A DNA stretch of 59,817 nt from a virus (Duplodnaviria; Caudoviricetes). The notes beneath the pieces are model-generated. The model had not been told where the DNA came from. It worked only from the letters and a program-made list of their open reading frames with translations, and ran no database searches. The position numbers and the translations under genes are program-made. Positions within the stretch are counted from its first letter, which is position 1, and every line of letters starts with the position of its first letter. The DNA lies in IMG/VR virus record IMGVR_UViG_3300012920_000042, positions 1 through 59,817 of that record; one strand, given 5' to 3'. Positions 9,696 through 54,390 of this stretch are shown here, in pieces.

Positions 9696-9710
9696 TTAAG
9701 GAGTGCAATC

Positions 9711-9896: not shown

Positions 9897-9929
9897 AATT
9901 AATTTTTCCTTTCTTTGATAAATACTACT

Positions 9930-31503: not shown

Positions 31504-31513
31504 TGTCTATTCC

Positions 31514-38991: not shown

Positions 38992-39015
38992 ACATATATT
39001 TATATGTACGTTATA

Positions 39016-39336
39016 TTACCAACTAATATTCCAGGTTATTGTATCTGTGGTTGTTAAGTTTTGTGCTATTTTGACACCATATCCTAAGTCTTTAAAATAC
39101 TTAGCAACATAGTCTACTTGATCTTTTTTGGTTGCATCTGTTGTTACACCAAAGTATGCTTTATAATAAGCATTGCTGTCTGTCATTGTAGTGCCTGTGG
39201 ATATGTTTGCATACAATACTCCAGCATCTACATTCCCTAAAACAGCGGTTTCAATACTGCGAACTTCAGCATGAATAACTGAATTATTCCTAGTATCTTT
39301 ACGAGCCGTTGCCGCATTAGAGAATATACTTGCCAT
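39016..39336 (-). CDS. Hypothetical protein
   Basis: ORF in the late operon, ends YF..LGY..ITWNISW. Confidence 0.7.
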   Translation of the reverse strand: MASIFSNAATARKDTRNNSVIHAEVRSIETAVLGNVDAGVLYANISTGTTMTDSNAYYKAYFGVTTDATKKDQVDYVAKYFKDLGYGVKIAQNLTTTDTITWNISW

Positions 39337-39683
39337 TATAAATCTGCCTTAATATCTTTCATGGCTTGATTACCAGCCATTTTACTAACATCAACTGTTT
39401 GTTCTGCGTCAGTATTAACATTTTGATCTAGGTCGCCTTTTGCTCTAATTCTGTTTTTATCAAAACTAACAGCAAACTCGCTATCATCGATTGCTTTGAG
39501 CAAAGTATCAATGTTTACTTTTCTGCCTATTTGTGCTTCTACTTCTGCTTTGAAATCATTTGTAGGAATATCTACATCGTCCTGATCGTCTGCGGCATAT
39601 ATACCCAGTAAATCTTTTACGGCATTAACTAACTCTTCCGCAGTTCCCTGATCTTCAGAAACTATGACTTCTGAAATCAACAT
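39336..39683 (-). CDS. Hypothetical head-associated protein
   Basis: MLISEVIVSE|D capsid-targeting-like start. Confidence 0.65.
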   Translation of the reverse strand: MLISEVIVSEDQGTAEELVNAVKDLLGIYAADDQDDVDIPTNDFKAEVEAQIGRKVNIDTLLKAIDDSEFAVSFDKNRIRAKGDLDQNVNTDAEQTVDVSKMAGNQAMKDIKADL

Positions 39684-39686
39684 TTT

Positions 39687-40994
39687 TTAGACCTCTGCTC
39701 TACCTAGTGGCTCTTCTTCTGGTCCTGACATTGCAGGTACATTATCAGCAACTGGCTCTTCCATTCCTAAATCGTCTAATGCAGGCTCTTCAGCACCCAT
39801 GTCTGCACCCATATCAGCAGTATCACCTATGCCTCCTGGCATTTGTCCACCTGCTAGTGCATCTATTTGTGCATCCATTCCTTGCTTAACACCTTTAACT
39901 GCTTCTAAGTGTGCTGATAGTAATTGGGAAACAGCATCTGAGAATGATTGAGCAACATCGGCACCCATTTCATTTCTCATTGAATCTGCTATTGCAGGCA
40001 AATCTTCATTTTGCATTCTGCCAACTCTTTCAACTTGATCTTGAATATCGTCTGCTAATGCTCTAACTGCCATAACAACTTCTGCTTCTTCAACATTTAC
40101 TTCTTCTGCAAGTATTTCGTTGATGAGGTCATCAAACATTGAATCTTTGCTTTCTTCAACTGACTCTTCTGTTTTAGACATTGCATCTCTTACCTCTTCT
40201 GGCTTCATGTCAAGTTCTTTAGCAATTTCTTCAACACTCTTGCCGTCGTCTTTTAGTTTGTACATATACTGAATGCTGTCATTTAATTTCTTTTCAGCAA
40301 TCTTTCTACCAAACATTTGAATACCGCCAGCAACTGCATCTTCATCTAAACCGTTTAAGAAACCAACAACTGCATCTCTGCTTTTGCCACTGACTTCTGC
40401 AAAACCATTTAGTTTTTCTTCGATAGCATTGTAGTCATCCATAGTGGAAAGATCCATTTCCATTTCTTTGGAAAGTTCTCTTAACAATGCTGGACTTAGA
40501 TCTGTAACTGGTCCTTCTTCAATTGATTCATGCTTAGAACCGCATGACTCTTCAAACTTTTTAATTGCCGCCATAACCATACCTTCTGTGCAAGAATCTT
40601 CATAGCAATGAGATGGGTCTTTTCTGACTTCATTCATGCATTGACTTCTTGCCTCTTCGGCAGTATAGCCTGAATTACAAAGTTCCATAATTCTTTCGTA
40701 TATCTTAGCCTCTAGTGCCTTGTACCCTGGGCTTGACTCGTAATATCCTTCAACAATCATAGTTTCTGAAAGATCCTTTAAACCAAGATACTTAGCATAT
40801 TCTGGCTCTAATTGGAACTTCTTCTTACTTCCTCTAATTTTATACAAAGCAGTCTTGGCTGTCTCGTTAATTTTCATTAACTTTTGGAGGTTGACTGTTC
40901 CTGGATTAATTTTAATACCGAATTGTTCAAAGAGCATTTTATTCAAAGTTGCTACTCTGGTAATCGGTGTCTGATTAAATTCATTCAAAAACAT
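39687..40994 (-). CDS. Putative prohead core/scaffold-like helical protein
   Basis: Acidic, helical, many x-x-E boundaries; late box at ~41028. Confidence 0.55.
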   Translation of the reverse strand: MFLNEFNQTPITRVATLNKMLFEQFGIKINPGTVNLQKLMKINETAKTALYKIRGSKKKFQLEPEYAKYLGLKDLSETMIVEGYYESSPGYKALEAKIYERIMELCNSGYTAEEARSQCMNEVRKDPSHCYEDSCTEGMVMAAIKKFEESCGSKHESIEEGPVTDLSPALLRELSKEMEMDLSTMDDYNAIEEKLNGFAEVSGKSRDAVVGFLNGLDEDAVAGGIQMFGRKIAEKKLNDSIQYMYKLKDDGKSVEEIAKELDMKPEEVRDAMSKTEESVEESKDSMFDDLINEILAEEVNVEEAEVVMAVRALADDIQDQVERVGRMQNEDLPAIADSMRNEMGADVAQSFSDAVSQLLSAHLEAVKGVKQGMDAQIDALAGGQMPGGIGDTADMGADMGAEEPALDDLGMEEPVADNVPAMSGPEEEPLGRAEV

Positions 40995-41060
40995 AGTGAT
41001 TTCCTGTTATAAGTTAGTTATTACACTTATTTATCATTTAAGTGAAATTTATGAAAAGTT

Positions 41061-41522
41061 TTATAACTGGTGTTTTAGTTCTTTAGAGACGTACTTCAAT
41101 TTAAGTATAGTTTCATGGAGTCTTACAAATGCAACATCACGCATGAATTGTTTCTTAGTTGTTTTAATTGTGTACTTGTGGAAAATAGATTCTGTGTACA
41201 AATCAGCATATCTGTCTAATAGTTTCTGTACACGTTCTAACTGTGTTTCGCTTACAGGTTCATAGGCGTTCTTGGGCTTATTTCGGGCGTTTAGACTTGC
41301 ACAGAGCGTCTGTGCTACACTTTTTTGAAATATATGTGTCAATACAACCCTTTGGTTCTTTAATGCGTTTACAATGCAATAAAAGTCCTTATTTGGGGAC
41401 TGCATAACCACATAGGCACCACGTTTAGACACATTTTGAGCAAGTTTATCTAGTTTTACTGCTAGTTGTTGCTTTTGTGCTTTATTAAACTTTGGTTTTT
41501 TGCGGGTATGTCTTGTAGCCAA
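41061..41522 (-). CDS. Hypothetical basic protein
   Basis: ORF track; operon context. Confidence 0.6.
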   Translation of the reverse strand: MATRHTRKKPKFNKAQKQQLAVKLDKLAQNVSKRGAYVVMQSPNKDFYCIVNALKNQRVVLTHIFQKSVAQTLCASLNARNKPKNAYEPVSETQLERVQKLLDRYADLYTESIFHKYTIKTTKKQFMRDVAFVRLHETILKLKYVSKELKHQL

Positions 41523-41709
41523 CTTTTCCTTCCTTTGTAGTTATTTTACGAATGACGTTTTGCTTATACATCTCCTCGCATTGATGTAAAGTTCTTTCGT
41601 CAAGTGTATTTATATCTAAAAATTTGTCAAAGTCGATTTTGTTGAAGAGTGTTGCGTCATGCGAACTGATAAAACTTAAATGTCCATCTTTGCATTTAAC
41701 GGCTTTCAT
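41485..41709 (-). CDS. Hypothetical protein
   Basis: ORF track; operon context. Confidence 0.65.
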   Translation of the reverse strand: MKAVKCKDGHLSFISSHDATLFNKIDFDKFLDINTLDERTLHQCEEMYKQNVIRKITTKEGKVGYKTYPQKTKV

Positions 41710-41711
41710 GA

Positions 41712-42050
41712 TTAACCTTCAGGTTGATATGACCAGTTCCAAGCACCTGCACCTATGTAACCATCTCGAACATAACCTGCAAGACACATAGCATCATCGC
41801 TGTCAATACCTTTCTTTTCGGCCCATTTCATAATATAGTAAGGCCTATTTTTTTCAGGGATAACGTCGGCAAATTTTGCAACAATTTCTGGATCTGCTTT
41901 AGGGTCCATATCTTCCTTTACCTTTTTCTTCTTACCTTTGCTAACAAAAACACTAGGGTTAGGCCTTTTATGCATAGGGCCACCGCTAACTCCCCCAATG
42001 GCTATTGCACCACTAGTTGTTGTTTCCTTTATGATATCATTAATTAGCAT
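41712..42050 (-). CDS. Small head-associated protein
   Basis: Likely start ATG 42050: MLINDIIKE|TTTSGAIA. Confidence 0.65.
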   Translation of the reverse strand: MLINDIIKETTTSGAIAIGGVSGGPMHKRPNPSVFVSKGKKKKVKEDMDPKADPEIVAKFADVIPEKNRPYYIMKWAEKKGIDSDDAMCLAGYVRDGYIGAGAWNWSYQPEG

Positions 42051-42076
42051 TTTTGTCAACCTTTATTTTATAGTAT

Positions 42077-45000
42077 TTATCTTGTTTCCTTGGCTTTGTC
42101 TATAAAGTAATTTGGATTTCTTTGCTTCATTGCCCAAATCATTCTTTTTGCTTTGTCTTCTCCGTGCTTACTAATAAACTTTTGTAATGTACGCCTTTCT
42201 AATTCTTCCGGAGAAATTTGCTTACGCATTTGTGCGTATGCTAAATCTCCTAAACTTTCAATTTGTTTTTTGATGTCGTGTTTTAATTCTTCTTTTTTGG
42301 ATTTTTTCTTGCCTGCTTTCATGTTAGCACACCAGTGATACATCTTGCCACGTTCACCACTATACTTTTTAGCCTTGGCTCTTAAACTGGTAACTGAACC
42401 TTTACAACTTGCACCACTACGTTTTACTCTGCCTGGACGACTTTTGCCTTTCTTTTTGCCGTCAGCAAAGTTTTCGTCTATAATTTCTGCTGGTATTACA
42501 TCTCTGCCAACACGTTTTGCTTGATACACTCTGTGAAAGCCATCAAGTATTGTTTTGCCATCTATATCTATCAGTATTGGTTTATCTAAATCAACACCCA
42601 CATCTGGATCAACATCTATAACTCTTCCGAAACGGTCATCAATTGCCTCGTCATCTAAGTCTGCTACTTTAACTTTGATTAGTTTAGTCTTTTTACCTTT
42701 TATATAATCTTTAACATCAGGATTTAGATTTCTTTCATTTACATTTTTGTAAACACTATACAACACAGGATTATTTTCACAGCCAAGTTCGTCATACGCA
42801 ACACCTCTAACTAATGCTTGTTGTCCTTGTCTGCTATCAAAATCTCTATAAGCATTTGCATACTGATTGTCTATAGACTCATCATCATGCCCATCATTGC
42901 ATTCATCTGTAAATCCTTCGTAGTGTACAATATATTCGCCAACTTTGTCCTTACCAACATCATCTGGTCTTAAACTTTTAACAAACTGTTGTACTTCTGG
43001 CGGAAGTTGTTGATTTTCGTTTATTTCATTTGGATCATCAGGATAATGTCCTGTTGCACTATGATAGTATAATAGTTCTGCGGCATCTGGATAGCCTTCT
43101 GTGTCTATGTAGTTAGGATCTGTAAGTCCTTGTAAAAATACTTCACCATCTTCAAAGTGTTGATTGCCGTAACTGGTCATTATGCGATATTGTTTACCGT
43201 CTGTGCCTTTTATAATTACACCATCTTCTTGATCTACCTGTGCTTGGTTTACCCATTCATCATTGGCTCTGTTTGCTTCTTCTGGTGAGAAGTATGGTTT
43301 TACAGCCTGTGGATTCATGCCCACAACATCTTCCTCTAACTCTGGATGATATTTCATTGTAACTTTTTTAGCATCTTTTTTAATTGATACTCCGTCTACT
43401 AATACTTCTACTGGATAAGTTTTAAACTCATCATACCAATATGCCATATCGTATCCGCCGTCTTCAAGTAATTCTATAAGTACACCTCTGTCGTAATCAT
43501 TATCTTCTGCTTTAAGAACTTTAATTTTACCTCTTGGTAATACTAAGTCTACACCTTCATTGTTTGATTTCTTTTTACTTTTTGGATGATCCTCAGGATT
43601 TTCATGCTCTTTTGTTTTTTTCTTTTTTGGTAATCCTTTGTGCTTTGTTCCTGCAAAGTCTTTGACATCTGAAACTTTCATATCTTTGGCTACTTCACCT
43701 GCTTCTCCGCTTTTAGGCATGTCACCTTTTTGCATAGCTCTTACTACACCAAAGAATTTTTGTTGTTGTTTGCTGACTGCTTTCTCATTATAGATACTTG
43801 CTTTCATTCTTTTCTTGAGGTCTTTTTTACGTTGTGCCAAGTCTGAATCAATGCCTTTCATCAATGCTCGAATATCTTGTGCGGCTTCTATACTTTCGTT
43901 AAGTGTTGCTAGTCTAATAACACCACAACCTAATCTATCTCCAGCATTACCTGTTTTAAGACTTTCTGCATCTCCGCCTTTGCCTAAATCATCTCTGTCA
44001 GCATGTACAATTAATGCTCTACCTACAACACTTCTATCACCGTGTAAGTCTACACGTTTTAGTACTAAACTAACATCTGCAATACCATCTTCATTAGCAA
44101 CTATATTACCTAAGTCCCCCACATGGCCGTTATCTAAATCGCCATGATCCACATTATCTGGATTGTAATGTCCTCCTGCAGTTGTACAGCCATCACTTAA
44201 ATCACCAAATTCGTGTATGTGGAAGCCATGCTCTCCTGGAGTTAAACCTGTTACTCTGCCTACTAATAATGTTGGCTTTCCTGGGTCCTGTCTAAATAAA
44301 AACTGTCCTTCTCCTATTTCGCCTTCAGTGTGTTCAAACTCACACTTAGCAAACACAGTTTTTGTTTGTGCTTCATAAACACCTTTACCAAATTTTACGT
44401 TCGATGACTTTTTCTTTTTCTTCTTTTTCTTTTTCTTAGATTTGCTGTATGCTGGCATAGAACCAATATAATAAAATCCTCTTGCTGGTGCTGGTGTACT
44501 GTCACCACTGTCTGTGCTACCACCTGCATCACTGCTACCTGCAGAGCCACCATCTCCACCAGATGATCCTCCACCGTCTCCACCACCTGCACTTGCACCT
44601 GCTCCAGCACCGCCTCCAGCGGCACCTCCGCCTCCAGCACCACCACCGGCTCCACCTCCGCCGCCTCCGCCGCCTCCGCCGCCTCCGCCGCCACCTTCAG
44701 CATCTAATCTGATGCGTTTTTCTAAGGCAACTTTAAGTTTGCGTTGGAACTCTGCGATTTCGACATCTTCGTCGACAACTGGAGTGTTACTGGTTGTATT
44801 AGGAAACATTTTAATAAGATCTTCTATAGACGCATCAATTATAATTGCTGGAACTACATTTATATCTAGCATTCTAGCGGCATCATATCGATGATGTCCG
44901 TTTACTAAATATCCGTCTTTGTCTAATATGAATGGTTTGTCTTTTCCGTGAAAATCTTGTGCAACTTTTCTTGCAAGTCCTGGTACACGTTGAGTCTGTA

Positions 45001-45163
45001 CAGGTTTGATAGAATCTGTTCGTACTGTGGCTTTGCGAAATTTTAATTTGGATTTTTGAAGGTCAGGTAATTTAAGTTGAGGCATTACATTGCGATCAAA
45101 ATGCTTATCGCCTACATTACTTGGCAATGTACTTGCTATTGCTTCAAATATTGATATTCTCAT
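42077..45163 (-). CDS. Polyprotein-like: ParB/Srx + Gly-rich linker + Cu/Zn SOD + DUF3008-like + acidic modules + ParB/Srx + basic Cys module
   Basis: [10 protein letters not shown]; [29 protein letters not shown]; [22 protein letters not shown]; ILDGFHR. Confidence 0.85.
43910..44371 (-). other. sodC: Cu/Zn superoxide dismutase domain embedded in the polyprotein
   Basis: Metal-ligand His/Asp residues, the disulfide Cys pair and the active-site Arg all recognisable. Confidence 0.92.
44480..44700. repeat. GC-rich low-complexity (CCGCCGCCT)n repeat encoding a poly-Gly/Ala/Ser linker
   Basis: Direct reading of 44560-44700; encodes GGGGGGGGGGGGGGGAGGG... Confidence 0.9.
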
Positions 45164-45303
45164 CTAAATCTTCTTCCTATGTTCATTAACTTTTTAGTTG
45201 CACATTTAGGACAAAGTGTTTTACCATATATAAATGCAAAGTGTAATACTGGTCCAGTATATTTACACTTGTGACACTTTATGTGGTCTTTGCCATTCTC
45301 CAT
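45160..45303 (-). CDS. Small zinc-ribbon protein, 47 aa (not in ORF track)
   Basis: [15 protein letters not shown]...LCPKCATKK; stop overlaps the next ATG (ATGA). Confidence 0.6.
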
Positions 45304-45394
45304 TCCTGTATACCGCAACCTCACCTTTATTACAAAGTGTGAACTCTCCTTCTGTTGGTTTTTGTGGTTCTCTGACCCTTATTTCCTCGCTCAT
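45263..45394 (-). CDS. Small hypothetical protein, 43 aa (not in ORF track)
   Basis: [27 protein letters not shown]; ATG overlaps the upstream TGA. Confidence 0.5.
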   Translation of the reverse strand: MSEEIRVREPQKPTEGEFTLCNKGEVAVYRNGEWQRPHKVSQV

Positions 45395-48300
45395 TTACTC
45401 AATTGTTTTTTAAGAGAGTCATGCAATTTTAATTTAGCATAACTTCTCACTATACTTCTTAAATCGTGTTCGTCACCATAACTTGCTCTAGCGGCTCTAA
45501 AATCTCTTATCATGCTAGGATCTGGTATAGCCACATAAGCATCCATTTGTCCTTTAATATCATTTGTAAGTAAAGGTTTGGCAAATATTTCTCTTAACTT
45601 TCTTATAGTATCGTTGTTAGGTACAGCACCTTCTCTGATGCTTTCTACTTTTTTACGCATACCTGAACCTCTTACTTTAGTTAAATCAACTAATCCTTTT
45701 TCTTTTTCAATGTAGTTTCTTATGTATCCACTACCTGCTTGATACATTCTTATTGATAAAAAGTCCTTGTTTGTGACTTTATTAAAAATTGTAATCTTAG
45801 GATGTTTAGCAGTTTCAATCATTTTTGCTTCTAAGTCAACTTTATCTTTGTCAAACATTCTATTTAACTTTTTAAAATCCAGCACATAGTATCCACCTGC
45901 TTTGAGATCTGTAAACTGTACTAGTTTTACTCTATCATCATTTAGTGTTGCAAAGAACTTGATAGCATTCAATAAAGTCAATAAAAATTCTTCTTCTTTT
46001 TCTTCACTTGTTAAATGAGAATTGAGTTGTCTTACTGCTTCTGTGTAAGCAATCTTATATCCTTGTTCTACGGTTTCTGCATTTAAAAAGTCTTGTTCTA
46101 TGTTTGAAATATCAACATCAAACCTTTGCCACATTTCTGCAAGTATGCCGTAACGTACACTTAATGGTTCTGTTTGCTTGCCTCCGCCTACTTGTCCCAT
46201 TTGTTTTGTGCTACCTACTTTAACACTCATGTCAAAATGTTGTAGTGTTTTTTCTGGACCACCATCTAAACTGTGTGTTAAGAATACATCTACTTTAGTA
46301 TCTGTTTCTCCACTAACACCATCAGCAATAACTTTTACAGTATCTACTTTACCATTTGCTTGGAAATAGTTTGTGTACTTTTCTAAATTATCATTTACAT
46401 AATCAACTACACCGCTTGTAATACTTTGCATTACACTCCATTTTTGAGGATCAATAAAGTCTTGATAAGTATCTGACTTTAAATTAAGTGTAAGTGTAAA
46501 GAAGTCAGCAATAGGATTATCTACTTCTTGAGCAGTAAGTGTTAGTTCATGCCAACCACCTTGATCCGGTGCATCTGTTGGTAACTGTTTAATAACATTC
46601 TCTATGTCTGCCGCTGTAACAGGCGCACTTGGACGTACTAATAAACGTGCAAATGTACCACAACCTAATATGCCTTCTGCTACTTCTCCTTTGTTGGAAA
46701 CTTTCACTGGTGCATCATCACCTGCAGGGCCTCCTGTCCTAGCACCAAACTCTGCTGTTTTTTCTAAAGTGCCATATGAAACTTGTTCGCCATCTGCTGT
46801 TGTAAGTTTTGCAGGAAGTTGTCCAGCATTCTCGGCATTGTCAAAAGCATCTGCCATACTTGGGTCTAACTTTATAGAGCCTTCGCCACCTGCAAGTGTA
46901 AAGTCTCCATCTGCTCTTAATTTATCTGCAAAATTTTGTCGCCTGTCAGGTGTTTTTAAATCTGCTCTACCTAATGCTTTCTCATGTAGTTGATTTATTT
47001 TAGTAACATCTATATTTTCTAATTTTGCTATTTGTTCTTGCAATGGCAGTTTGTCAAATCTATCAAACACACTTTCATTTTGACTTTGCAGTACCATTCT
47101 ACCTCTTGCTAATGCACCCTGGAAATCATTTGGTTCTTCGCCTGAGTTTTTATCAAAAATTAATTTTTGTATAACAGCATGTTTAAACTCTTCATCATTG
47201 TCTGGATTTTTTAAGAATGCTACAAATCTATTTACATCAGGTCTAAGCAAATAATTTTGCATACCTGTAATCATCATGTAATCAAATTTTTGGTATTTTC
47301 TTCGCATAGCATCATAATCGTCTTCTGATACATCATCGCCAGGCCTTTCTCCTCTTAAATCACTTACTGAAGGACCTGATGCGTTTCCATAAACATCGCT
47401 TACATCATCACCTGGATTGCCGTCAGCATCTTTTCTAAAGTAGTTTCCGCCTCCGCTAGTGTAGTTTGCATTGATATATTTTCTGGCATCTCTTACAGCC
47501 TGTAACCATCTTTGTAATCCTATTACAGGAACTTCATCTGGTCCTGATCTATACTTTGTTGAATCACTTTGGAATTGATCAACTACTTTTTTAAGTAAGT
47601 TTACACCTTGATTATTTACACCCGGTTCTATACCTATTGCAGGTGCTAATAGATCATATTTTGCTTGAGTATGTATTGTTTCAGATGATTCGCCATCTAG
47701 ATGATCAACTCTAGCGGCTTTGGCTATTGCATTACTTGTAGCATCATCTACAGGATCAAACTCATCACCATCTTTGTTTTGTGTTTCTTCATGAGGTATT
47801 AGAGGTGCATCATCTATACTGGAACCTTTTCTGGTAACTTCAATACCAGCCTTTTTCATCTGATTATATAAATTACTTGAATAAGAATCTGTCATTATAT
47901 ATTCATCAGTATCCATTCTATTCCAGGATATCTTATACATCAACATAAACTTTTTAATAATCTTGTTAGCAATAGGTTCACGCCATAACTGAGAAGTTTT
48001 TAATGGTGCATCATCTGGTAAATCATTTAGCATTGCTAAAGTGTCATAAGCCTGTCTGACTTGATCTACATGAGGACCAGGAATAATATATACACCTGCT
48101 TGATTTATTTTTCCTAAAAACTTGCTTCTATCTTGAACCTGAGCACTTTGTCTCTGAGCCTGAGTTATATCTGGATCTATACACCTATCATAAATGTCTT
48201 TCCTAATAACTAACACAGAATGTTCTGGAACGTTAATTGATATAGGAGGTCTGTTTTGTACTGCTTTTTTAAAGTTTGTTTCTCTTTTATCCACACGTTG

Positions 48301-51300
48301 CTTGTCTGCAATCTCATCTGCTTGGCTATCAAATCCCATTTTCTTAGCAATACTATCAAAACCAGTCATCCAATCTTTAATACCAGACCAACGATTTTCT
48401 ATAACATCTTCCAGTCCTTTATAATAATTAGAATCTTTTTCTTTACGCCCATAATAAGAGCCAAGCATTTCTCTTAAAGCATCGCTCATTCTTTCGTTGA
48501 GTCTCATTACAATATTTTCACCGAATGGACTTTCAAACTCTCCTTTTGCAATACTGTCAAGAATTTCGTTTAATTTTTCTAACGGATATTCATTGATTGC
48601 TAGATATCTAGAGTTGTCTTTGTAGCCTTCATGTTGTGTACCTTCAAAATCACTATCATAATCTTCCCAATACATATCGTGTAAAGGCTTGTTTGTTCTA
48701 ACAAACTGTTCTGTTAGTACACCTAACTGTTTAACAGCATCATAATATAGTTGAGGATTTATGTTTTTCATTTCTTCTAAGTATGATAAACGTTTTCTCA
48801 ACTTCATGGTATATGTGTTTAAATAGTTTTCCACGTAAGTATCATCGCTGTGAAAATTTCTATTATAGTTAGGCGACACAGGTTCTTTATAATCTTTAAA
48901 AGTTCCTAGAAACTCCATTAATTCTTTGTAATATTCTTCGTTGTATATATTACCTACTTGCACAGGAGGATTAGATACATCGTAACTTCCTTTAGTCATT
49001 CTAGTATAGAATAAATTGAACTCTCTGGTATCCATTGTATTATTAATAGACACCTTCATATTGTGTGGTTCATTATCTGAGAAGTCAATATCATCACCAT
49101 AATTAAATTTTAATAACAAGTCAGTTATTTTTTCATACTGTTCTCTGGTAAGATCGCTACCAACAGCATTCCACAATCCAGTTATAACTTTTTCTGCCAT
49201 TGGCGTTTTAATAAAACTAGGTGCTTTAATAATGTCTTTCTTGAAAAGTTCGTCAATACCTTTTTTAACTACATTAATTTTTTGATCTAATCTGTCGTTT
49301 TGAGTAGGTATGTTTACTCCGTCTATAGAACGTACTATACGTCTACTAAGTTCATCAGCATCTAAGTCAAAGTCTTTTAAACTGTTTCTAAGTGTGCCAA
49401 TAACTTTAACAGTAACGTTACCTCTGTTCATTTCGGTTGCAACGTCTACTGCTAGTATACCTAATGCCTGTAAATAGTATTTTTGTGCTTCTTGCAATTT
49501 TTCTGGAGCTCTTTTACTTGGAGGATTTCTTGGTGGTTCAATATAACCAGTTATTTCTTCTTCTGTAATACTTTCACCCATCCAACTTGGATCTCGGCCA
49601 GTTCCCTTTCTATAATCTTCTATATCCTGCTTCCATTCATCGTCTGCCTCTGGACGAGATAGTTCTTCGTATTCTGACTTAGAACTGTATGCATTTACAA
49701 TTTTGCCAATGCCATCAAAATAGTTATCTTTGCTTAATAATGTTTTGAATACATCTACAATAGGCTCTTTGATATTATCTATATCAAATCTATCTTTTGT
49801 TGCTTCTATGTCTGCTTTGCTGATATTTCCCGCGGTATTAACAATTCTGTAGAGCATAGCATTGTAGTCTGCTTTATACTTGTCCTCGTCATAACCTGCC
49901 TCCATGATAGTTGCATATCTTATAACTGCTTTAACAATTTTACCCATGTCTCTATGGTAGTCTTCGCCGCCACCTATTCTAAACTCTATGAGTTGATTTT
50001 TGGAATCTCTATCTACTTCGCCTTTAAAATTAATACTGCTAAATTTGTCTCTGCTCAAAGACTTTGAAAGTACAGCCTCTATTTCTTTTCTTCCTTCTTC
50101 GCCTTTGCCTATTTCTCTAGTAAGTTGTTTTGCGGCTTTTCGTAATCTTTCGCTTTGTTGCTTTGTGTAACTATTTCTTTCTCTACCGAAAGTACTGAGT
50201 AGATAAGTATCTCCTAATAGTGCCGCCATTTTTAATTTGTTTGGACCTGCGGATTCTGAATCGGAAATGGCTCTTGTTGTATCTTCTGCACCATTCCAAC
50301 TCATTGTAACATGCAAACCTGTAGAATTATTAGTTTCCATATCTGCACCTTCAAAAAACTTGAACATAGAACGCATTTCATCTAACATTTCTCTAGGAGT
50401 ATTAAATACTGGCGATATAATTTCTGCTCCAGTACCATAACTGTCAATACTGCTATCTGATTCTACGGCATAACCGCTAGTAGTACTTGTATACCCATAA
50501 TCACCTGTTTCTGGATATTCATTGAACTTACTGTTATCTTCTATCCAGCCACCATACAATGTTGAAGCAACTTCTTCTAAGCCGCCACCTTGTAGTTCAG
50601 AATAGTCAATGCCATAATCATCTAAAAATGAAGTCATTGTGTAGTATGCATCACTAATCCAGTCGTCCATGCTGTAATCACCATATGCTTCATCAAATGC
50701 TTCTTGGAAAACATCACCGTCAGCATCTAAATCCTCACGCAACCAATCAATGTATTCCGGTTCGTAATTTTCGTCAATGTACTCTCTTATCCAATTAATT
50801 TCGTCCCAACCATCCTCTTCTCTGTTTTGAAACTCTGCAGGATCGTTTTCTTTCATCTCTTCTTTGTAATCTTCAACTGCTTCATAAGTAGGTGCATCAT
50901 CGCTTTCATCCATATAACGTGTATAAGTATCGTCGTCATCTCTGGCATTTTCAATGGCAGTATCCATAGCATCTTCATAATAGTCAGGTGCTTTATTTTC
51001 TCTTATCCATTCATCAAAGCCTTCATCGATGTAACCTGCGTCACCGCTACCTATGTATAATGTACCTTCAACTTCACTCCAACTCATTTCATCTACATCT
51101 TCATTACTTCCGCTGATGTATTCCCATGATGTTTCTGCTTCGAACCCGCACTTGATAGGCAAGTCTAATGCTTTGTTTACAATTTCTTTACTGTTAAAGT
51201 TTATTTCTGCTAGATACTCGCCTTCTCTTAATCGGCTTCTTGAGAGTCTTTTAATTTTTTTAGCAATGGAGTTTTTCTTTGTGGTTTGTTGTTTTGTAAC

Positions 51301-51780
51301 TTTTTTAAGTATGTCATGACCTATGTCCTCATCTATCATAACTTCTACATTAGGATCATATAATTCGTATTCGCCTTTAACATTTTGTACAACAATCTTA
51401 TCTGGATTAGGTGACATACCTACTTTACTAATTACTGTACCTACTGTATTACCGTCCTTGTCTTTGAATACAGCACCATCGTCTAGGCCTTTTGCTGGTA
51501 CGCCAACCATTTTAGGTGCCGCACTTTTACCTGTTGTATTAGGACTTGCTTTTTGTCTTGCATTAGGACTTGCTTTTTGCATGGTATTTGGTGATGATGA
51601 TTGTCCCATAGCACCTTTTATATCACCTTGTGCTAGATCTGATCCTGCTTTTACTCTATCCTTAACAAATTTTGCGGCGGCTTTTGCTTTTTGACCAAAA
51701 GTACTATACGCAGGAGCACCTGGTGTAGACCCATATTCTTTTAAAAAATGTTCTAAAGTTTTAATATCATTAAACTTCAT
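45391..51780 (-). CDS. Giant modular protein with a putative amidoligase (COOH-NH2 ligase) domain and a C-terminal PD-(D/E)XK-like module
   Basis: CGFEAE, VESDSSI, GAEIISPV, TNNSTGLHVTMS, KFSSIN, IEFRIGGG; NKGEVAEG..TKVDV..MSVK. Confidence 0.75.
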   Translation of the reverse strand: MKFNDIKTLEHFLKEYGSTPGAPAYSTFGQKAKAAAKFVKDRVKAGSDLAQGDIKGAMGQSSSPNTMQKASPNARQKASPNTTGKSAAPKMVGVPAKGLDDGAVFKDKDGNTVGTVISKVGMSPNPDKIVVQNVKGEYELYDPNVEVMIDEDIGHDILKKVTKQQTTKKNSIAKKIKRLSRSRLREGEYLAEINFNSKEIVNKALDLPIKCGFEAETSWEYISGSNEDVDEMSWSEVEGTLYIGSGDAGYIDEGFDEWIRENKAPDYYEDAMDTAIENARDDDDTYTRYMDESDDAPTYEAVEDYKEEMKENDPAEFQNREEDGWDEINWIREYIDENYEPEYIDWLREDLDADGDVFQEAFDEAYGDYSMDDWISDAYYTMTSFLDDYGIDYSELQGGGLEEVASTLYGGWIEDNSKFNEYPETGDYGYTSTTSGYAVESDSSIDSYGTGAEIISPVFNTPREMLDEMRSMFKFFEGADMETNNSTGLHVTMSWNGAEDTTRAISDSESAGPNKLKMAALLGDTYLLSTFGRERNSYTKQQSERLRKAAKQLTREIGKGEEGRKEIEAVLSKSLSRDKFSSINFKGEVDRDSKNQLIEFRIGGGEDYHRDMGKIVKAVIRYATIMEAGYDEDKYKADYNAMLYRIVNTAGNISKADIEATKDRFDIDNIKEPIVDVFKTLLSKDNYFDGIGKIVNAYSSKSEYEELSRPEADDEWKQDIEDYRKGTGRDPSWMGESITEEEITGYIEPPRNPPSKRAPEKLQEAQKYYLQALGILAVDVATEMNRGNVTVKVIGTLRNSLKDFDLDADELSRRIVRSIDGVNIPTQNDRLDQKINVVKKGIDELFKKDIIKAPSFIKTPMAEKVITGLWNAVGSDLTREQYEKITDLLLKFNYGDDIDFSDNEPHNMKVSINNTMDTREFNLFYTRMTKGSYDVSNPPVQVGNIYNEEYYKELMEFLGTFKDYKEPVSPNYNRNFHSDDTYVENYLNTYTMKLRKRLSYLEEMKNINPQLYYDAVKQLGVLTEQFVRTNKPLHDMYWEDYDSDFEGTQHEGYKDNSRYLAINEYPLEKLNEILDSIAKGEFESPFGENIVMRLNERMSDALREMLGSYYGRKEKDSNYYKGLEDVIENRWSGIKDWMTGFDSIAKKMGFDSQADEIADKQRVDKRETNFKKAVQNRPPISINVPEHSVLVIRKDIYDRCIDPDITQAQRQSAQVQDRSKFLGKINQAGVYIIPGPHVDQVRQAYDTLAMLNDLPDDAPLKTSQLWREPIANKIIKKFMLMYKISWNRMDTDEYIMTDSYSSNLYNQMKKAGIEVTRKGSSIDDAPLIPHEETQNKDGDEFDPVDDATSNAIAKAARVDHLDGESSETIHTQAKYDLLAPAIGIEPGVNNQGVNLLKKVVDQFQSDSTKYRSGPDEVPVIGLQRWLQAVRDARKYINANYTSGGGNYFRKDADGNPGDDVSDVYGNASGPSVSDLRGERPGDDVSEDDYDAMRRKYQKFDYMMITGMQNYLLRPDVNRFVAFLKNPDNDEEFKHAVIQKLIFDKNSGEEPNDFQGALARGRMVLQSQNESVFDRFDKLPLQEQIAKLENIDVTKINQLHEKALGRADLKTPDRRQNFADKLRADGDFTLAGGEGSIKLDPSMADAFDNAENAGQLPAKLTTADGEQVSYGTLEKTAEFGARTGGPAGDDAPVKVSNKGEVAEGILGCGTFARLLVRPSAPVTAADIENVIKQLPTDAPDQGGWHELTLTAQEVDNPIADFFTLTLNLKSDTYQDFIDPQKWSVMQSITSGVVDYVNDNLEKYTNYFQANGKVDTVKVIADGVSGETDTKVDVFLTHSLDGGPEKTLQHFDMSVKVGSTKQMGQVGGGKQTEPLSVRYGILAEMWQRFDVDISNIEQDFLNAETVEQGYKIAYTEAVRQLNSHLTSEEKEEEFLLTLLNAIKFFATLNDDRVKLVQFTDLKAGGYYVLDFKKLNRMFDKDKVDLEAKMIETAKHPKITIFNKVTNKDFLSIRMYQAGSGYIRNYIEKEKGLVDLTKVRGSGMRKKVESIREGAVPNNDTIRKLREIFAKPLLTNDIKGQMDAYVAIPDPSMIRDFRAARASYGDEHDLRSIVRSYAKLKLHDSLKKQLSK

Positions 51781-52128
51781 TTACTTTTTCCTGTTTGGGA
51801 ATCTGTTTGTTTTTGCTTTGAAAGGACTCTTTTTAGGTTTAAATCTCGTAGGCTTGTTCATTTGTGCTACCCTACGACTAATTGGATTATACTTCTTAGA
51901 CCTTTTAGCCTTACGAGCAATCTTGGCTCCAAATTTTGCTTTTGTTTTTTTAAGTGTTAAACGTTTTTTGAAGTCTATAGGAGCACCACATTGGCTAGCC
52001 TTTGAGACTACCCTACCTTTACGCCTACCAGATGTACACCTGACAGCACGTTTTACTTTGTTGCCCATTTTACGCCAGACCATTCTGGCTTCAAATATTT
52101 CGCTATCGTCGACTTCGTTAAATCTCAT
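51781..52128 (-). CDS. Highly basic small protein with capsid-targeting-like start
   Basis: MRFNEVDDSEIFE|A then K/R-rich RCTSGRRKGRVV..C. Confidence 0.7.
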   Translation of the reverse strand: MRFNEVDDSEIFEARMVWRKMGNKVKRAVRCTSGRRKGRVVSKASQCGAPIDFKKRLTLKKTKAKFGAKIARKAKRSKKYNPISRRVAQMNKPTRFKPKKSPFKAKTNRFPNRKK

Positions 52129-52129
52129 T

Positions 52130-52576
52130 TTACCACTTCTTACATGACCAGTATCTTGCTTTAGTCTTTGGACCTGGATTATCGCAATTATGTCTTGCTC
52201 TAAAACTCTTTCTTGCTTTAGGATTGTTTTTGCGAATTTTCATAGCCTTACCTTTTACACTTGAACCGCCGTGTCCAAAGTTTACTTTTTTAACGTTTCC
52301 TGTTTTAGGATCTTTCACATAAACTTTAAACTTCTTAACATCGCCTTGCATAGGTTTGTTAAGTTTAACTTTACGTCCGCGGTATTCTGCTTCTTCTAGG
52401 TTATCTTCAATCCATCCGTAGTCTTCAAAGAAAGCATTGTCGTCATCATAATCATATTCTTCGAGACCTTCTTTTTTGACACAGTTTGGTACACGTTTTC
52501 CGAACATGGTTTTCATGCCCTTCTTCTCGTAACCTTTCCAACAACGTGTGCCTTCTTCAATTTCTCTTATATTCAT
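52130..52576 (-). CDS. Basic modular protein (DUF6321-like C-terminus)
   Basis: Likely start 52576 MNIREIEE|G; CWKGY..VPNCV module; RKSFRARHNC..ARYWSC. Confidence 0.7.
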   Translation of the reverse strand: MNIREIEEGTRCWKGYEKKGMKTMFGKRVPNCVKKEGLEEYDYDDDNAFFEDYGWIEDNLEEAEYRGRKVKLNKPMQGDVKKFKVYVKDPKTGNVKKVNFGHGGSSVKGKAMKIRKNNPKARKSFRARHNCDNPGPKTKARYWSCKKW

Positions 52577-52824
52577 AATAATATACTTCCTAATAGTGTT
52601 CCTACTGTGGCTAAAAGTGTAGTTACAGTAATACCAACAATAGCAACTATCCAACCTTCTAGTTTATCAAGTCTTGATTTAGTATCATCTTTGAATTCTC
52701 TTAGTTCAGCAGTAATGCTTTCTATACGCAACATATCTGCAATAATATGTGCTTCAACACCACCCTCTTGAATATACTGCTCTGGTTGTGGTACTTCTTT
52801 AGTTTCTACCTTTTTTCTAGCCAT
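52573..52824 (-). CDS. Coiled-coil protein with a C-terminal TM helix
   Basis: RLDKLEGWIVAIVGITVTTLL. Confidence 0.7.
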   Translation of the reverse strand: MARKKVETKEVPQPEQYIQEGGVEAHIIADMLRIESITAELREFKDDTKSRLDKLEGWIVAIVGITVTTLLATVGTLLGSILL

Positions 52825-52838
52825 TTTTTAGTCTACTC

Positions 52839-53255
52839 TTATAATAAATCTTGTTTAGTGAATTCCATATTCACTGTACTTTTAGTATCTATGGTTCCAC
52901 CATTTAATACTATACCATTTAATTCATCTTTGAGAGTATCTATTGTGTGAACGCCTTCACGTTCAAATGCAAATTTAAAAATCCACCCTGCTCCTGTAAG
53001 TGTAGGTGCCCCATAGTTTTCTAATACTAATGCACCACTTCCACTTAGTGCTACAGGGTTATTCATAACAACGGGCATAGCCCTTAGTCCTATAACTTGC
53101 ACTATACTTTCAAAGTCTTTTTGTGTGTTGTCATTGAAATCACCTGTTCTAGTGATGTCTAACGACGTAAACAATGAATAAAATTCTATATTACCAGATA
53201 AAACCTCCTGGTTATTCATTGCTCCTGCTCTTGTTAATGCCATGTGTGTCTCCAT
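52839..53255 (-). CDS. Hypothetical late protein
   Basis: GATAAATA upstream; ORF track. Confidence 0.7.
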   Translation of the reverse strand: METHMALTRAGAMNNQEVLSGNIEFYSLFTSLDITRTGDFNDNTQKDFESIVQVIGLRAMPVVMNNPVALSGSGALVLENYGAPTLTGAGWIFKFAFEREGVHTIDTLKDELNGIVLNGGTIDTKSTVNMEFTKQDLL

Positions 53256-53316
53256 TGCAAGACATTAGTGTCCTTGCTTACACTATTTATCAGTTTTTGG
53301 ATTATTGTTTTGGAGT

Positions 53317-54378
53317 CTAGAATGGCACGTCTTTAGAACGTGTAGTAATAGGTGTGTAAACTTCTTCTTTTGGTAATGATTTATTTTCTAATGCACGTTG
53401 TACAAATGCTTTTCTCAGTATTTGGAAATCTTTCATTATTTCAGATTTGGTTCTTGTTATTTCAAAGTTACCATACCAGACACCCAGTACTTCTATTAGC
53501 ACTTGTATTATATCATTGTGTATGTGTAGTCCTTTGTCTCTGTAATCTGTGAAGTATTCTTGTATTAATTCATACAAAGGAAAGTAATTTTCACGCATTG
53601 TTTCTTCTACTGCAACACGAATGCTGGATTTTGCAACAAAGGATAGTGCTAAAGGAGGGTGATCCTCTGGGAAAGATTGGCTTGCAAATCCAAAAGGACT
53701 GAGTATAAAGAGTACATCTTTACAAATATATTTGTGTATTAATTCTAATACTTCTTTGTGTGACTGCAATGTTTCTTCATGAGACATTCTGCGTATAATA
53801 TGTCTTTCATGATCTAAGTGTGCTAATGGCGGTGCCGCATGTAGGTCCTGCCCTGTTACTTTGTCATGATAAATGTCTGTGGTGCCACTAAATAATACCA
53901 TTTTATTAAAGTCAAGCATTTTTAGTTTCAAAAACTCTTTGTCTCTTTTGCTGATTTTAAATTGCTTAGGACTGTAATCTTCCCAGATGCTTTCTTGATA
54001 CATATCACCATCTTCAAAAAGCCAACGTAAGTTCATAGCAAGTGTTTTCATATTAAATACACCTTGTCCATATCTAAAAACTTTGTTGGTTGTCCACATT
54101 TTCTTTTCAAATATACTAGCAAAGTCTGTTACTATACAACTGCCTGCCCATAGTACAGTATCACCTTGTTCAAAAAAGTCAGTGTTAAATGAATGGAACC
54201 ATTCATAATTGAAGAATTCTTTGGATTTTTCAAAGCCAGGTGTAGATGTAGTAATTAATTTACCTGGTCTTGCATTAGCAACTTCCATAGGAATTTTGAA
54301 GTTGCCAAACACAGATTCTGTGGAACTCATTTCCAGGATGTGTTGGTTTATGATTAATGGGTCGTCTAGTATTGCCAT
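53317..54378 (-). CDS. GSCFA-family (SGNH-like) protein
   Basis: WAGSCIV, ILSP, AKSSIRVA, YFPLYE, LH; leaderless late start. Confidence 0.75.
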   Translation of the reverse strand: MAILDDPLIINQHILEMSSTESVFGNFKIPMEVANARPGKLITTSTPGFEKSKEFFNYEWFHSFNTDFFEQGDTVLWAGSCIVTDFASIFEKKMWTTNKVFRYGQGVFNMKTLAMNLRWLFEDGDMYQESIWEDYSPKQFKISKRDKEFLKLKMLDFNKMVLFSGTTDIYHDKVTGQDLHAAPPLAHLDHERHIIRRMSHEETLQSHKEVLELIHKYICKDVLFILSPFGFASQSFPEDHPPLALSFVAKSSIRVAVEETMRENYFPLYELIQEYFTDYRDKGLHIHNDIIQVLIEVLGVWYGNFEITRTKSEIMKDFQILRKAFVQRALENKSLPKEEVYTPITTRSKDVPF

Positions 54379-54390
54379 ACTAGTATTTAT

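What the first reader, a model, noticed from the sequence alone, without database searches (positions are those of the whole stretch)
42077..45163. Cu/Zn SOD and two ParB/Srx domains embedded in a cleavable cargo polyprotein
Seen: module borders coincide with E sites: IFE|A[ParB/Srx]VDE|D..VYE|A[complete SOD]LNE|S..YNE|K[DUF3008-like]..NNE|G..LEE|D..INE|N..VNE|R[ParB/Srx]IDE|N[basic Cys module]. The SOD has no signal peptide. Inference: maturation would release a free SOD inside the capsid, protecting packaged DNA or the infected cell from superoxide, with ParB/Srx NTPase/nuclease modules as possible anti-defence cargo. The match between SOD boundaries and E sites is the best internal evidence for processing.
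Basis: partly seen in the sequence, partly recalled or inferred. Interest (0 to 1): 0.82.

Follow-up and report, generated by a model that had tools for sequence, protein, structure and literature searches.

The report
Phage cargo polyprotein carrying superoxide dismutase
An uncultured marine giant phage encodes one long protein that strings an intact animal/plant-type copper-zinc superoxide dismutase, two ParB-like domains and several small modules between glutamate joints of the kind T4-type head proteases cut, so it is probably loaded into the capsid and cut into separate cargo proteins, though no cutting or packaging has been measured.

Summary
The ORF is real: 42077-45163, minus strand, 1028 aa. 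It holds a complete Cu/Zn SOD (Pfam 8e-43, all ligands kept, SOD1 fold at TM 0.95). It also holds two ParB/Srx-like domains, a DUF3008-like module and a very conserved basic Cys module.

Of 725 internal homology breakpoints, 354 lie within 3 residues of the 17 hydrophobic-x-Glu sites (random expectation 85, p about 1e-4). The closest relative, P0123, lacks exactly the stretch between VYE| and LNE|. In relatives, modules recombine directly after Glu: 146 of 146 basic modules are preceded by Glu.

Homologues start with a T4 CTS-like tag, and most end in the basic module, which occurs in 1442 protein clusters.

T4-type S77 prohead protease genes occur in 8 of 57 related viral records, and in 6 of the 8 records that are at least 30% complete. 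The window itself has none, but it is a fragment estimated at 19% complete.

My best reading is a capsid-targeted, protease-processed cargo polyprotein (confidence 0.55). Packaging, cleavage and SOD activity are all unmeasured.

The scan has noted the same system before in at least 11 other genomes. I found no paper describing it.

The parts
42077..45163 (-). Whole ORF, 1028 aa (P0001), about 112.6 kDa, no internal stop
45143..45163 (-). N-terminal tag MRISIFE|A (residues 1-7), like the T4 capsid targeting sequence. pLDDT is below 50 for residues 1-18
44768..45142 (-). ParB/Srx-like domain 1 (residues 8-132, folded about 20-124, motif NGHHRY), ends in VDE|D
44372..44767 (-). Helix, then Gly-rich and poly-Lys low-complexity linker (residues 133-264; pLDDT below 50 at 156-265), ends in VYE|A. 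The same module is present in P0123 and P0025-type relatives
43895..44371 (-). Complete eukaryote-type Cu/Zn SOD cassette (residues 265-423), bounded by VYE| and LNE|. Exactly this stretch is absent from the closest relative P0123
43784..43894 (-). Basic helix module (residues 424-460), ends in YNE|K. Homologous to the stretch that directly follows VYE| in P0123
43331..43783 (-). DUF3008-like basic module plus poorly predicted region (residues 461-611), ends in LEE|D. The DUF3008-like core is shared with the T4-like cyanophage S-PM2 gene p146
43016..43330 (-). Folded acidic module DVVGMNPQ... (residues 612-716), fold not identified, ends in INE|N. In P0051 it follows an N-terminal tag directly
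42734..43015 (-). Folded alpha/beta module (residues 717-810), no clear fold match, ends in YKNVNE|R. In relatives this end is joined to at least 6 different downstream modules
42473..42733 (-). ParB/Srx-like domain 2 (residues 811-897, motif DGFHRV), ends in IDE|N
42290..42472 (-). Basic Cys module [17 protein letters not shown]...[10 protein letters not shown] (residues 898-958, pI 10.7, 2 Cys). It is found in 1442 protein clusters and is C-terminal in most
42077..42289 (-). Helical basic C-terminal tail (residues 959-1028) plus stop codon. Shared only with the L003 relative
45160..45324 (-). Small upstream ORF with CxxC...CxxC. Its stop overlaps the start codon of P0001 (ATGA), which suggests translational coupling

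Best explanation
P0001 is a capsid-cargo polyprotein of an uncultured marine giant phage with a T4-type head.

Proposed mechanism (inferred):
1. The protein is made late in infection.
2. It is recruited into the prohead core through its short N-terminal tag (MRISIFE), possibly helped by its basic modules.
3. A T4 gp21-type (S77) prohead protease then cuts it after Glu in hydrophobic-x-Glu motifs at the exposed joints between folded modules.
4. This would free about ten pieces: two ParB/Srx-like domains of 14 and 10 kDa, a 16.8-kDa eukaryote-type Cu/Zn SOD beginning AQTKTVF, two acidic folded modules, and small basic pieces (pI 9.6-10.7) that could stay with the packed DNA as T4's basic internal proteins do.
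5. The pieces leave the capsid with the DNA at infection. The SOD would then lower superoxide around the incoming genome or in the virion.

Shown here: the domains, their intact catalytic residues, the cassette borders at Glu, the tag, the shuffling of modules among relatives, and the presence of T4-type protease and capsid genes in related records.

Inferred: packaging, cutting, ejection, metal loading and the physiological role.
For: 1. Borders within P0001. There are 17 hydrophobic-x-E sites. Of 725 internal BLAST breakpoints, 354 fall within 3 aa of them (random placement gives 85 +/- 50, p about 1e-4). Per-site counts are highest at 132, 264, 423, 611, 716, 810 and 897.

2. AF2. Low-confidence stretches (1-18, 125-133, 156-265, 452-614, 901-913) and dips (711-720) lie at these same sites. 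The sites at 285, 318 and 743 sit inside blocks with pLDDT above 90.

3. Exact cassette indel. P0123 reads ...KFGKGVYE|TVEASQDINAL..., while P0001 reads ...KFGKGVYE|[SOD]...LNE|[11 protein letters not shown]....

4. Combinatorial joints in relatives. YKNVNE| is followed by GDVV, SVNP, RNLN, NYKS, NFAD or NKRN. KSIY.E| is followed by at least 6 different modules. Glu precedes the basic module in 136 of 146 cases, the DVVG module in 36 of 48, and ends the SOD in 97 of 110.

5. Best 150 cluster representatives of the basic module. The start motif was found in 146 of the 150. All 146 have Glu before it, and 123 have a hydrophobic P3. Some read tag-E|module directly (MRISEITE|NFADGK).

6. Tag. Homologues start with M-[KR]-hydrophobic-x-[DE]-hydrophobic. 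A loosened form of that pattern (extra residues allowed at positions 2 and 5) picks 14 of 75 window ORFs, clustered at 39336-59245 and 9039-12605; P0001's own MRISIFE does not match it. The T4 CTS is MKTYQEFIAE, is cut off by gp21, and is carried by diverse basic internal proteins (passages of PMC8442874, PMC3012670, PMC5694885).

7. Protease. PF03420 is found in 8 of 57 related records, and in 6 of the 8 that are at least 30% complete. All 5 protease-bearing records tested also have gp23-type MCP genes (a sixth, G002). G047 has a portal-protease-scaffold-MCP block plus a tagged cargo cluster with a stand-alone SOD.

8. Precedent for a packaged SOD. The PBCV-1 Cu/Zn SOD is a late protein packaged in the virion (passage of PMC7019647).
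Against: - No S77 or S78 protease gene lies in the window.
- G001, G003 and G004 are 25-28% complete; G001 and G003 hold the longest matches to P0001, G004 only its basic module. They also show no S77 gene. Only 11 of 69 window ORFs have a homologue in protease-bearing G047, so the link from this phage to a T4-type protease is indirect.
- There are no proteomic or expression data.
- P1' residues at the joints are very varied (A, D, S, K, N, R).
- T4 internal proteins are cut only once, next to the CTS (PMC8442874), so multi-site release goes beyond the T4 IP model.
- Ten of the 17 hydrophobic-x-E sites are not at module borders.
- The conserved Glu could simply be the first or last residue of conserved modules.
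- BLAST breakpoints come from related sequences and are not independent.
- Pfam does not call either ParB domain in this protein. The ParB fold matches are middling, Z at most 6.2.
- A Cu/Zn SOD made in a bacterial cytoplasm needs copper and a disulfide. The Cys motif (CPRTK...CxC) that precedes the SOD in most relatives is missing here.
Confidence: 0.55

Rival explanations
1. Packaged, but not cut apart. Only the short N-terminal tag is removed, or nothing is. The 112-kDa protein then acts as one intact injected 'polyvalent protein', and the Glu joints are leftovers of gene fusions between formerly separate tagged genes.
For: - Polyvalent phage proteins with 2-15 domains, often including ParB/Srx domains, are described as packaged effectors, some of them unprocessed (passages of PMC5512222).
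- Fossil tags are visible inside relatives (IYEAIK..CPRTK compared with the N-terminal MKIFDAIQ..CP.TK).
- T4 internal proteins are cut only once.
Against: - Most joints (YKNVNE|, KSIY.E|, IDE|NFADGK) do not look like decayed start tags, yet they keep hydrophobic-x-E across very many contexts.
- The joints sit in exposed or low-confidence segments.
- The cassette indel is exact at Glu on both sides.
Confidence: 0.22
2. Not a virion protein. It would be a cytoplasmic multi-domain enzyme made during infection. The shared N-terminal motif would serve another purpose, such as translation start context, assembly or turnover, and the SOD would protect the infected cell from within.
For: - No capsid, portal or protease gene lies in the window.
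- The neighbours are enzyme-like (DUF6267, GSCFA).
- Auxiliary metabolic genes such as NrdAB and UvdE are nearby.
Against: - The tag matches the T4 CTS in length and pattern, and it is carried by unrelated proteins clustered in one block.
- The system co-occurs with T4-type head genes in relatives.
- Tiny basic tag-plus-module proteins such as P0149 make little sense as enzymes.
Confidence: 0.13
3. A scaffold-like core protein. It would be loaded and cut as proposed, but the pieces would mostly be degraded and expelled during head maturation, as with T4 gp22, gp67 and gp68. On this reading the SOD and ParB domains would not be delivered cargo.
For: T4 gp21 cuts core proteins into short fragments that leave the head (passage of PMC5694885). 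The long Gly-rich and Lys-rich disordered parts could be scaffold-like.
Against: Intact catalytic residues in the SOD, and strong conservation of folded modules across 1442 clusters, argue for function after cutting. Folded 10-17 kDa domains are not typical expelled peptides.
Confidence: 0.07

Closest known systems
Phage T4 internal proteins IPI, IPII, IPIII and Alt: capsid targeting sequence (MKTYQEFIAE) removed by prohead protease gp21 (S77)
   Same: A short N-terminal tag on unrelated, often basic, proteins. The cut motif ends in Glu. T4-type protease and gp23-type capsid genes are present in related records.
   Different: Here many modules are strung in one chain, with Glu joints between all of them. 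T4 IPs are single-module and are cut once. A conserved C-terminal basic Cys module has no T4 counterpart that I know of. No experiment exists for this lineage.
Polyvalent proteins of phages and conjugative elements (Iyer et al. 2017, PMC5512222), including phage P1 DdrB and DarA
   Same: Multi-domain mosaic proteins of phages with ParB/Srx-type domains, proposed to be packaged and injected, some of them processed. One relative (P0093) carries the DdrB-like ParB Pfam family PF18763.
   Different: That paper never mentions superoxide (0 occurrences). Its processing examples use in-built metallopeptidase domains. I did not search the paper for a T4-like tag or for Glu-joint cassettes.
Ejection and inner-body proteins of giant phages phiKZ, 201phi2-1 and SPN3US, processed by a gp21-related prohead protease after Glu
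   Same: Giant phages carry many head-internal proteins that are cut C-terminal to Glu (A/S/G-x-E), sometimes at several sites in one protein.
   Different: The P3 preference differs (small residues there, hydrophobic here). Those phages use long propeptides rather than a 7-10 aa tag. No SOD or shuffled cassette chains are reported in the passages read.
Virion-packaged Cu/Zn SOD of chlorovirus PBCV-1 (A245R)
   Same: A eukaryote-type Cu/Zn SOD expressed late and packaged in the virion. Superoxide was lower in PBCV-1-infected cells than in cells infected by NY-2A, which lacks the gene (passage of PMC7019647).
   Different: PBCV-1 is a eukaryotic virus, its SOD is a stand-alone protein, and the packaging route is unrelated.
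Prophage-borne periplasmic SodC (Gifsy-2, Fels-1, Stx phages)
   Same: The same enzyme family, and it is phage-encoded (32-37% identity).
   Different: Those are annotated as precursors, that is, made with an export signal. From recall, they act as secreted lysogenic-conversion factors of the host. P0001 has no signal peptide, is closest to eukaryotic SOD1 and is embedded in a tagged mosaic protein.

Membership tests
Cu/Zn superoxide dismutase (Pfam PF00080) | Full-length domain match above the curated cut-off | tested here: met
   146.5 bits against a cut-off of 28.9; model positions 3-133 of 133
Cu/Zn superoxide dismutase (Pfam PF00080) | Copper and zinc ligands (six His, one Asp), the disulfide Cys pair and the catalytic Arg | tested here: met
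   All are aligned and identical to human SOD1 in the printed alignment. The roles of the residues are recalled from SOD1 knowledge.
Cu/Zn superoxide dismutase (Pfam PF00080) | Greek-key beta-barrel fold | tested here: met
   Foldseek TMt 0.95, rmsd 1.0 A over 153-154 columns against SOD1 chains. pLDDT is 88-97 for most of residues 271-420.
Cu/Zn superoxide dismutase (Pfam PF00080) | Dismutase activity with bound Cu and Zn | not testable with these tools
   Needs an activity gel or assay on expressed protein or virions
ParB/Srx superfamily (ParB N-terminal or sulfiredoxin fold) | ParB/Srx alpha+beta fold | tested here: met
   Domain 2: the top 8 VIA rows are PadC, Srx, KorB, pNOB8 ParB, SerK, human Srx, SbnI and Atu1540, Z 4.6-6.2 over 68-75 residues. 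Foldseek gives ParB and Srx rows with probability 0.84-1.00 but E at least 0.014. Domain 1 was not searched separately by fold.
ParB/Srx superfamily (ParB N-terminal or sulfiredoxin fold) | Conserved Arg of the G-x-x-R / GGCHR active-site loop | tested here: met
   NGHHRY (domain 1) aligns to the GGSHRY loop of the sulfiredoxin chain. DGFHRV (domain 2) aligns to domain 1. The sulfiredoxin Cys is not present (recalled motif), so sulfiredoxin chemistry is unlikely.
ParB/Srx superfamily (ParB N-terminal or sulfiredoxin fold) | Significant match to the Pfam ParBc model PF02195 | tested here: not met
   No PF02195 row even at E up to 1 for P0001. Homologues of the same module do carry PF02195 or PF18763, and PHROG ParB-like families hit domain 1 at E 1.8e-8.
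T4-type CTS-tagged, gp21-processed head cargo | Short N-terminal tag ending in a hydrophobic-x-Glu site, shared by unrelated proteins of the phage | tested here: met
   MRISIFE|A. A loosened tag regex picks 14 of 75 window ORFs (P0001 itself falls outside it); homologues carry the tag; compared with the T4 CTS.
T4-type CTS-tagged, gp21-processed head cargo | S77 (gp21-type) prohead protease encoded by the same phage | tested here: inconclusive
   None in the window, which is a fragment 19% complete. Present in 8 of 57 related records and in 6 of the 8 that are at least 30% complete.
T4-type CTS-tagged, gp21-processed head cargo | Presence in virions and cleavage after Glu | not testable with these tools
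   Needs virion proteomics or N-terminomics
Polyvalent proteins (Iyer et al. 2017) | Two to 15 unrelated domains in one phage polypeptide, with mosaic architectures among relatives | tested here: met
   About 10 modules. Module order and content vary among relatives.
Polyvalent proteins (Iyer et al. 2017) | Gene context next to portal, terminase or virion structural genes | tested here: inconclusive
   The window has a tagged-protein cluster, one weak 'virion structural protein' PHROG hit (39687-40994) and an Mtd_N tail-fibre-like gene, but no portal or capsid gene.
DUF3008 (Pfam PF11450) | Match above the curated cut-off | tested here: not met
   16 bits against a cut-off of 24, E 0.014. Related PHROGs 28725 and 30268 match at 5e-21 and 1e-19.

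The most novel reading that the evidence does not exclude
Marine T4-type giant phages may run a general, plug-and-play capsid cargo system. Its parts would be a 7-10 aa loading tag, enzyme cassettes joined head-to-tail by hydrophobic-x-Glu joints that the head protease cuts, and a near-invariant basic Cys module that stays with the DNA.

On this reading P0001 is a true phage polyprotein. After cutting, it would release a free eukaryote-type Cu/Zn SOD and two ParB-like enzymes inside the capsid, and these would be injected with the genome. That would be the first virion-delivered antioxidant enzyme of a bacteriophage. The Glu joints would double as the recombination points at which cassettes are swapped between phages.
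Probability: 0.4. Interest if true: 0.85.

Novelty: new variant of a known kind. Interest (0 to 1): 0.7.

Why it matters
If the reading holds, tailed phages can make polyproteins of cargo enzymes that the head-maturation protease cuts apart. That strategy is known from RNA viruses, not from phage capsid contents.

It would also show that the T4 'capsid targeting sequence' principle is used on a large scale in the ocean. The basic module alone marks 1442 protein clusters at 50% identity.

It gives a directly testable prediction: free SOD starting AQTKTVF in virions. It also offers a ready list of natural tags and joints for loading foreign proteins into T4-type heads.

A packaged SOD would point to oxidative stress at the moment of DNA entry, or during the free virion stage in sunlit water, as a selective force on marine phages.

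Tried and rejected
- Close DNA relatives. Megablast of 39000-55000 against GenBank phages found nothing. tblastn of the whole protein found only SOD and DUF3008-like pieces. tblastn of the basic Cys module found nothing, though the low-complexity filter may have hidden it.
- Protease in the window. Neither PF03420 nor PF04586 matched. The window does encode a subtilase. I did not pursue it as the processing enzyme: from recall, subtilases are not known to be Glu-specific. It remains untested.
- T4 late promoter idea from the same-genome notes. TATAAATA occurs 4 times against 6.8 expected. Sigma-70-like promoter and terminator scans around the gene were at chance level. No transcription claim is made.
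- I at first took the 353-aa ORF 53317-54378 for a capsid protein. Pfam says GSCFA family.
- Relatives of the neighbouring 2129-aa protein gave only three short contigs, so they could not be used to reach the head genes of this lineage.
- Fold of modules 612-716 and 717-810. Foldseek gave no match at E up to 0.001. VIA rows for these ranges were Z at most 4.3 and of mixed folds. The fold is left unnamed, not declared new.
- Literature. No paper in the library joins polyvalent proteins, bacteriophages and superoxide dismutase, other than one N4-like phage paper seen only as a listing. 'superoxide' occurs 0 times in PMC5512222, PMC7824862 and PMC12619734. Searches found no description of a tagged SOD polyprotein. 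Supplements were not opened.
- Complex prediction, the look-up of sequencing runs and read laying were not used, because they cannot show protein cleavage.
Full report
**What is there.** The stretch 42077-45163 holds one uninterrupted minus-strand ORF of 1028 aa, P0001. The window is the whole record: a linear IMG/VR virus contig of 59,817 bases that CheckV rates 19% complete. It is therefore a fragment of a much larger phage genome. Nothing similar at the DNA level is in GenBank phages.

**Domains.**
- SOD. Pfam finds a complete Cu/Zn SOD at residues 286-416, covering model positions 3-133 of 133, E 8e-43. By sequence it is closest to eukaryotic SOD1, E about 1e-44. The printed alignment keeps the metal-binding His and Asp residues, both disulfide cysteines and the catalytic Arg (residue roles recalled). 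The AlphaFold model superposes on whole SOD1 chains at TM 0.95 and 1.0 A.
- ParB/Srx 1. The N-terminal domain (about 20-124) hits seven ParB-like PHROG families, best E 1.8e-8. All seven of its weak PDB hits are sulfiredoxin or Spo0J. Pfam PF02195 does not reach E 1.
- ParB/Srx 2. The second ParB-like domain shares the DG.HR core with the first (E 1e-6 over 37 aa). In a separate model of residues 612-900 its range matches PadC, sulfiredoxin, KorB, pNOB8 ParB and others as the top eight rows, Z 4.6-6.2.
- DUF3008-like module. It is below Pfam's cut-off but strong against PHROGs. It recurs in the T4-like cyanophage S-PM2, where it also follows a hydrophobic-x-Glu (VLHE|KSVSKKQQKFF).
- Modules 612-716 and 717-810 fold confidently but match no known fold clearly.
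- There is no signal peptide and no membrane segment.

**Borders and Glu sites within P0001.** P0001 has 17 hydrophobic-x-Glu sites. I compared it by BLAST with 1080 proteins: 128 database homologues plus the ORFs of the loci held at that point.
- Of 725 internal alignment breakpoints, 354 lie within 3 residues of those 17 sites. Random placement gives 85 +/- 50, and only about 1 in 10,000 placements reaches the observed value.
- The AlphaFold confidence profile tells the same story independently. Low-confidence stretches or dips lie at 1-18, 125-133, 156-265, 452-614, 711-720 and 901-913. The hydrophobic-x-Glu sites at 285, 318 and 743 lie inside well-folded blocks.
- A cut after E264 would leave [10 protein letters not shown], the same register as the mature N-terminus of SOD1. 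The site at E423 lies seven residues after the conserved C-terminal CGVI motif.

**Comparative evidence.**
- The closest relative of the N-terminal part, P0123 (72% identity over residues 1-150), has the same tag, ParB domain, Gly-rich and poly-Lys linker. It then reads ...KFGKGVYE|TVEASQDINAL.... P0001 reads ...KFGKGVYE|[159-aa SOD]...LNE|[11 protein letters not shown].... The SOD is thus a cassette present or absent exactly between two Glu sites.
- Across relatives the joints are combinatorial. The end YKNVNE| is followed by at least six different modules, and KSIY.E| by at least six. The DVVG module is preceded by Glu in 36 of 48 cases. The SOD ends in Glu at the aligned position in 97 of 110 cases.
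- At the SOD start, Glu is at the aligned position in 43 of 94. In many of the rest it lies one residue later (for example RLRQLS|EAEK 15 times and SLHTIN|EAEE 8 times), so that count understates the pattern.
- Glu precedes the basic Cys module in 136 of 146 cases. In a search of 1.84 billion cluster representatives, the module is found in 1442 clusters at E up to 0.001. Among the best 150, the module's start motif was located in 146. All 146 are preceded by Glu, 123 with a hydrophobic P3, and the module is C-terminal in 129.
- Some small proteins read tag-Glu-module directly (MRISEITE|NFADGK). The Glu that ends the N-terminal tag and the Glu at internal joints are therefore the same element.

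**Tag.**
- The homologues returned mostly begin M-[KR]-hydrophobic-x-[DE]-hydrophobic. The three eukaryote-like SOD proteins do not. I did not count the tag in this list.
- In the window, a loosened form of that pattern marks 14 of 75 non-overlapping ORFs, clustered at 39336-59245 (-) and 9039-12605 (+). My rough estimate, not computed, is that chance would give fewer than one. P0001's own MRISIFE is a one-residue variant that the strict regex misses.
- The T4 capsid targeting sequence is MKTYQEFIAE. [quoted passage not shown]

**Which phages, and is there a protease?**
- The window has no S77 or S78 protease and no recognisable capsid gene.
- Among related IMG/VR records that share modules of P0001, PF03420 (T4 gp21 family) was found above its cut-off in 2 of 5, 3 of 41 and 3 of 11. 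That is 8 of 57 in all.
- Most records are small fragments. Of the 8 records at least 30% complete, 6 have the protease. The exceptions are G049 (31%) and G046, a small record with only a weak ParB match.
- Six protease-bearing records were tested for a gp23-type capsid gene, and all have one.
- Three protease-bearing records (G047, G048, G051) are 31-55% complete at 111-197 kb, which implies genomes of roughly 355 kb.
- G047, fetched whole, has a portal-protease-scaffold-capsid block. About 100 kb away it has a cluster of tagged genes, including a stand-alone SOD with the Cys motif and a flavodoxin-like protein ending in the basic Cys module.
- Only 11 of 69 window ORFs have a homologue in G047. 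G001, G003 and G004, of which the first two hold the longest matches to P0001, show no protease in their 25-28%. That this particular phage has such a protease is therefore an inference, though I consider it likely.

**Mechanism and rivals.**
- The best-supported reading is a capsid-loaded polyprotein that the head protease cuts at the exposed Glu joints. This would release the SOD, the two ParB-like domains, two acidic modules and several small basic pieces, which travel with the DNA.
- The main rival is that it is packaged but stays whole, like the polyvalent proteins of Iyer et al. (PMC5512222, passages), with the joints being scars of gene fusion. Fossil tags inside relatives (IYEAIK...CPRTK) show that fusion did happen. 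But most joints do not look like decayed tags, and they keep the motif across very many contexts.
- Less likely readings are a purely cytoplasmic role, or a scaffold-like protein whose pieces are expelled.
- The physiological role of the SOD is not testable here. The only precedent I could read is the late-expressed, virion-packaged Cu/Zn SOD of chlorovirus PBCV-1 (PMC7019647, passage).

**Novelty.**
- The polyvalent-protein paper, the jumbo-phage comparative review and the 'moraphage' paper never mention superoxide. My other searches found no description of tagged SOD polyproteins in phages. Supplements were closed, so a mention there cannot be excluded.
- Within this scan the system has been noted before. 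I re-derived the evidence independently here.
- I class it as a new variant of a known kind: T4-type CTS and gp21 cargo, crossed with polyvalent proteins.

**Limits.**
- All evidence for packaging and cutting is comparative.
- BLAST breakpoints come from related sequences.
- The ParB fold matches are middling.
- The full-length model has pTM 0.32, so nothing can be said about how the modules sit together.

Noticed in passing
relatives P0002-P0121 (for example P0008 residues 8-30); absent from window 42077-45163: In most homologues the SOD is preceded by a conserved Cys motif, CPRTK-x3-C-x-C, then ...[IL][ST]E|AE. P0001 and P0060/P0061 lack it. It recalls (from memory) the CxC copper-transfer motif of the eukaryotic SOD1 chaperone CCS, and could be a built-in metal-loading device.
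   Followed up: partly
window 45160-45324 (-): A small ORF with CxxC...CxxC (zinc-ribbon-like). Its TGA stop overlaps the ATG of P0001 (ATGA), suggesting translational coupling. A second 43-aa ORF (45263-45394) fills the rest of the gap after the 2129-aa gene.
   Followed up: no
window 26470-28029 (+): A 519-aa subtilase (Peptidase_S8, E 3.8e-23) without the N-terminal tag. Its role is unknown, and it was not tested as a processing enzyme.
   Followed up: no
window 53317-54378 (-): A 353-aa protein inside the tagged-gene cluster. It belongs to the GSCFA family (E 6.9e-11) and lacks the tag. It is not a capsid protein, as I first guessed.
   Followed up: partly
L014 10192-10818: In a T4-type record (G005), an Fe/Mn-type SOD-like ORF lies directly after a gene ending in the basic Cys module. 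I named it Fe/Mn-type by eye, from its motifs. It suggests that a second SOD class also sits in cargo clusters.
   Followed up: no
window 6443-7501 (-) and 30376-33826 (-): The window carries a UV-damage endonuclease UvdE (E 6e-37) and a likely ribonucleotide reductase pair (named by eye only). UvdE shares 64% identity with the G047 copy. UvdE, like the SOD, would fit a phage of sunlit water.
   Followed up: no
G047 173495-175831 (-): A 778-aa ORF whose N-terminus looks ClpA-like by eye. The 'moraphage' paper (PMC12619734) lists ClpA and a prohead core protease among that lineage's core genes, so G047 might belong there. Not tested.
   Followed up: no
window 44372-44767 (-): About 100 residues of nearly pure Gly/Ala/Ser followed by eleven Lys. 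The same stretch is conserved in P0123 and forms the first module after the tag in P0025, P0053 and P0108. It is therefore a real, reused module rather than an assembly artefact. Its function is unknown.
   Followed up: partly
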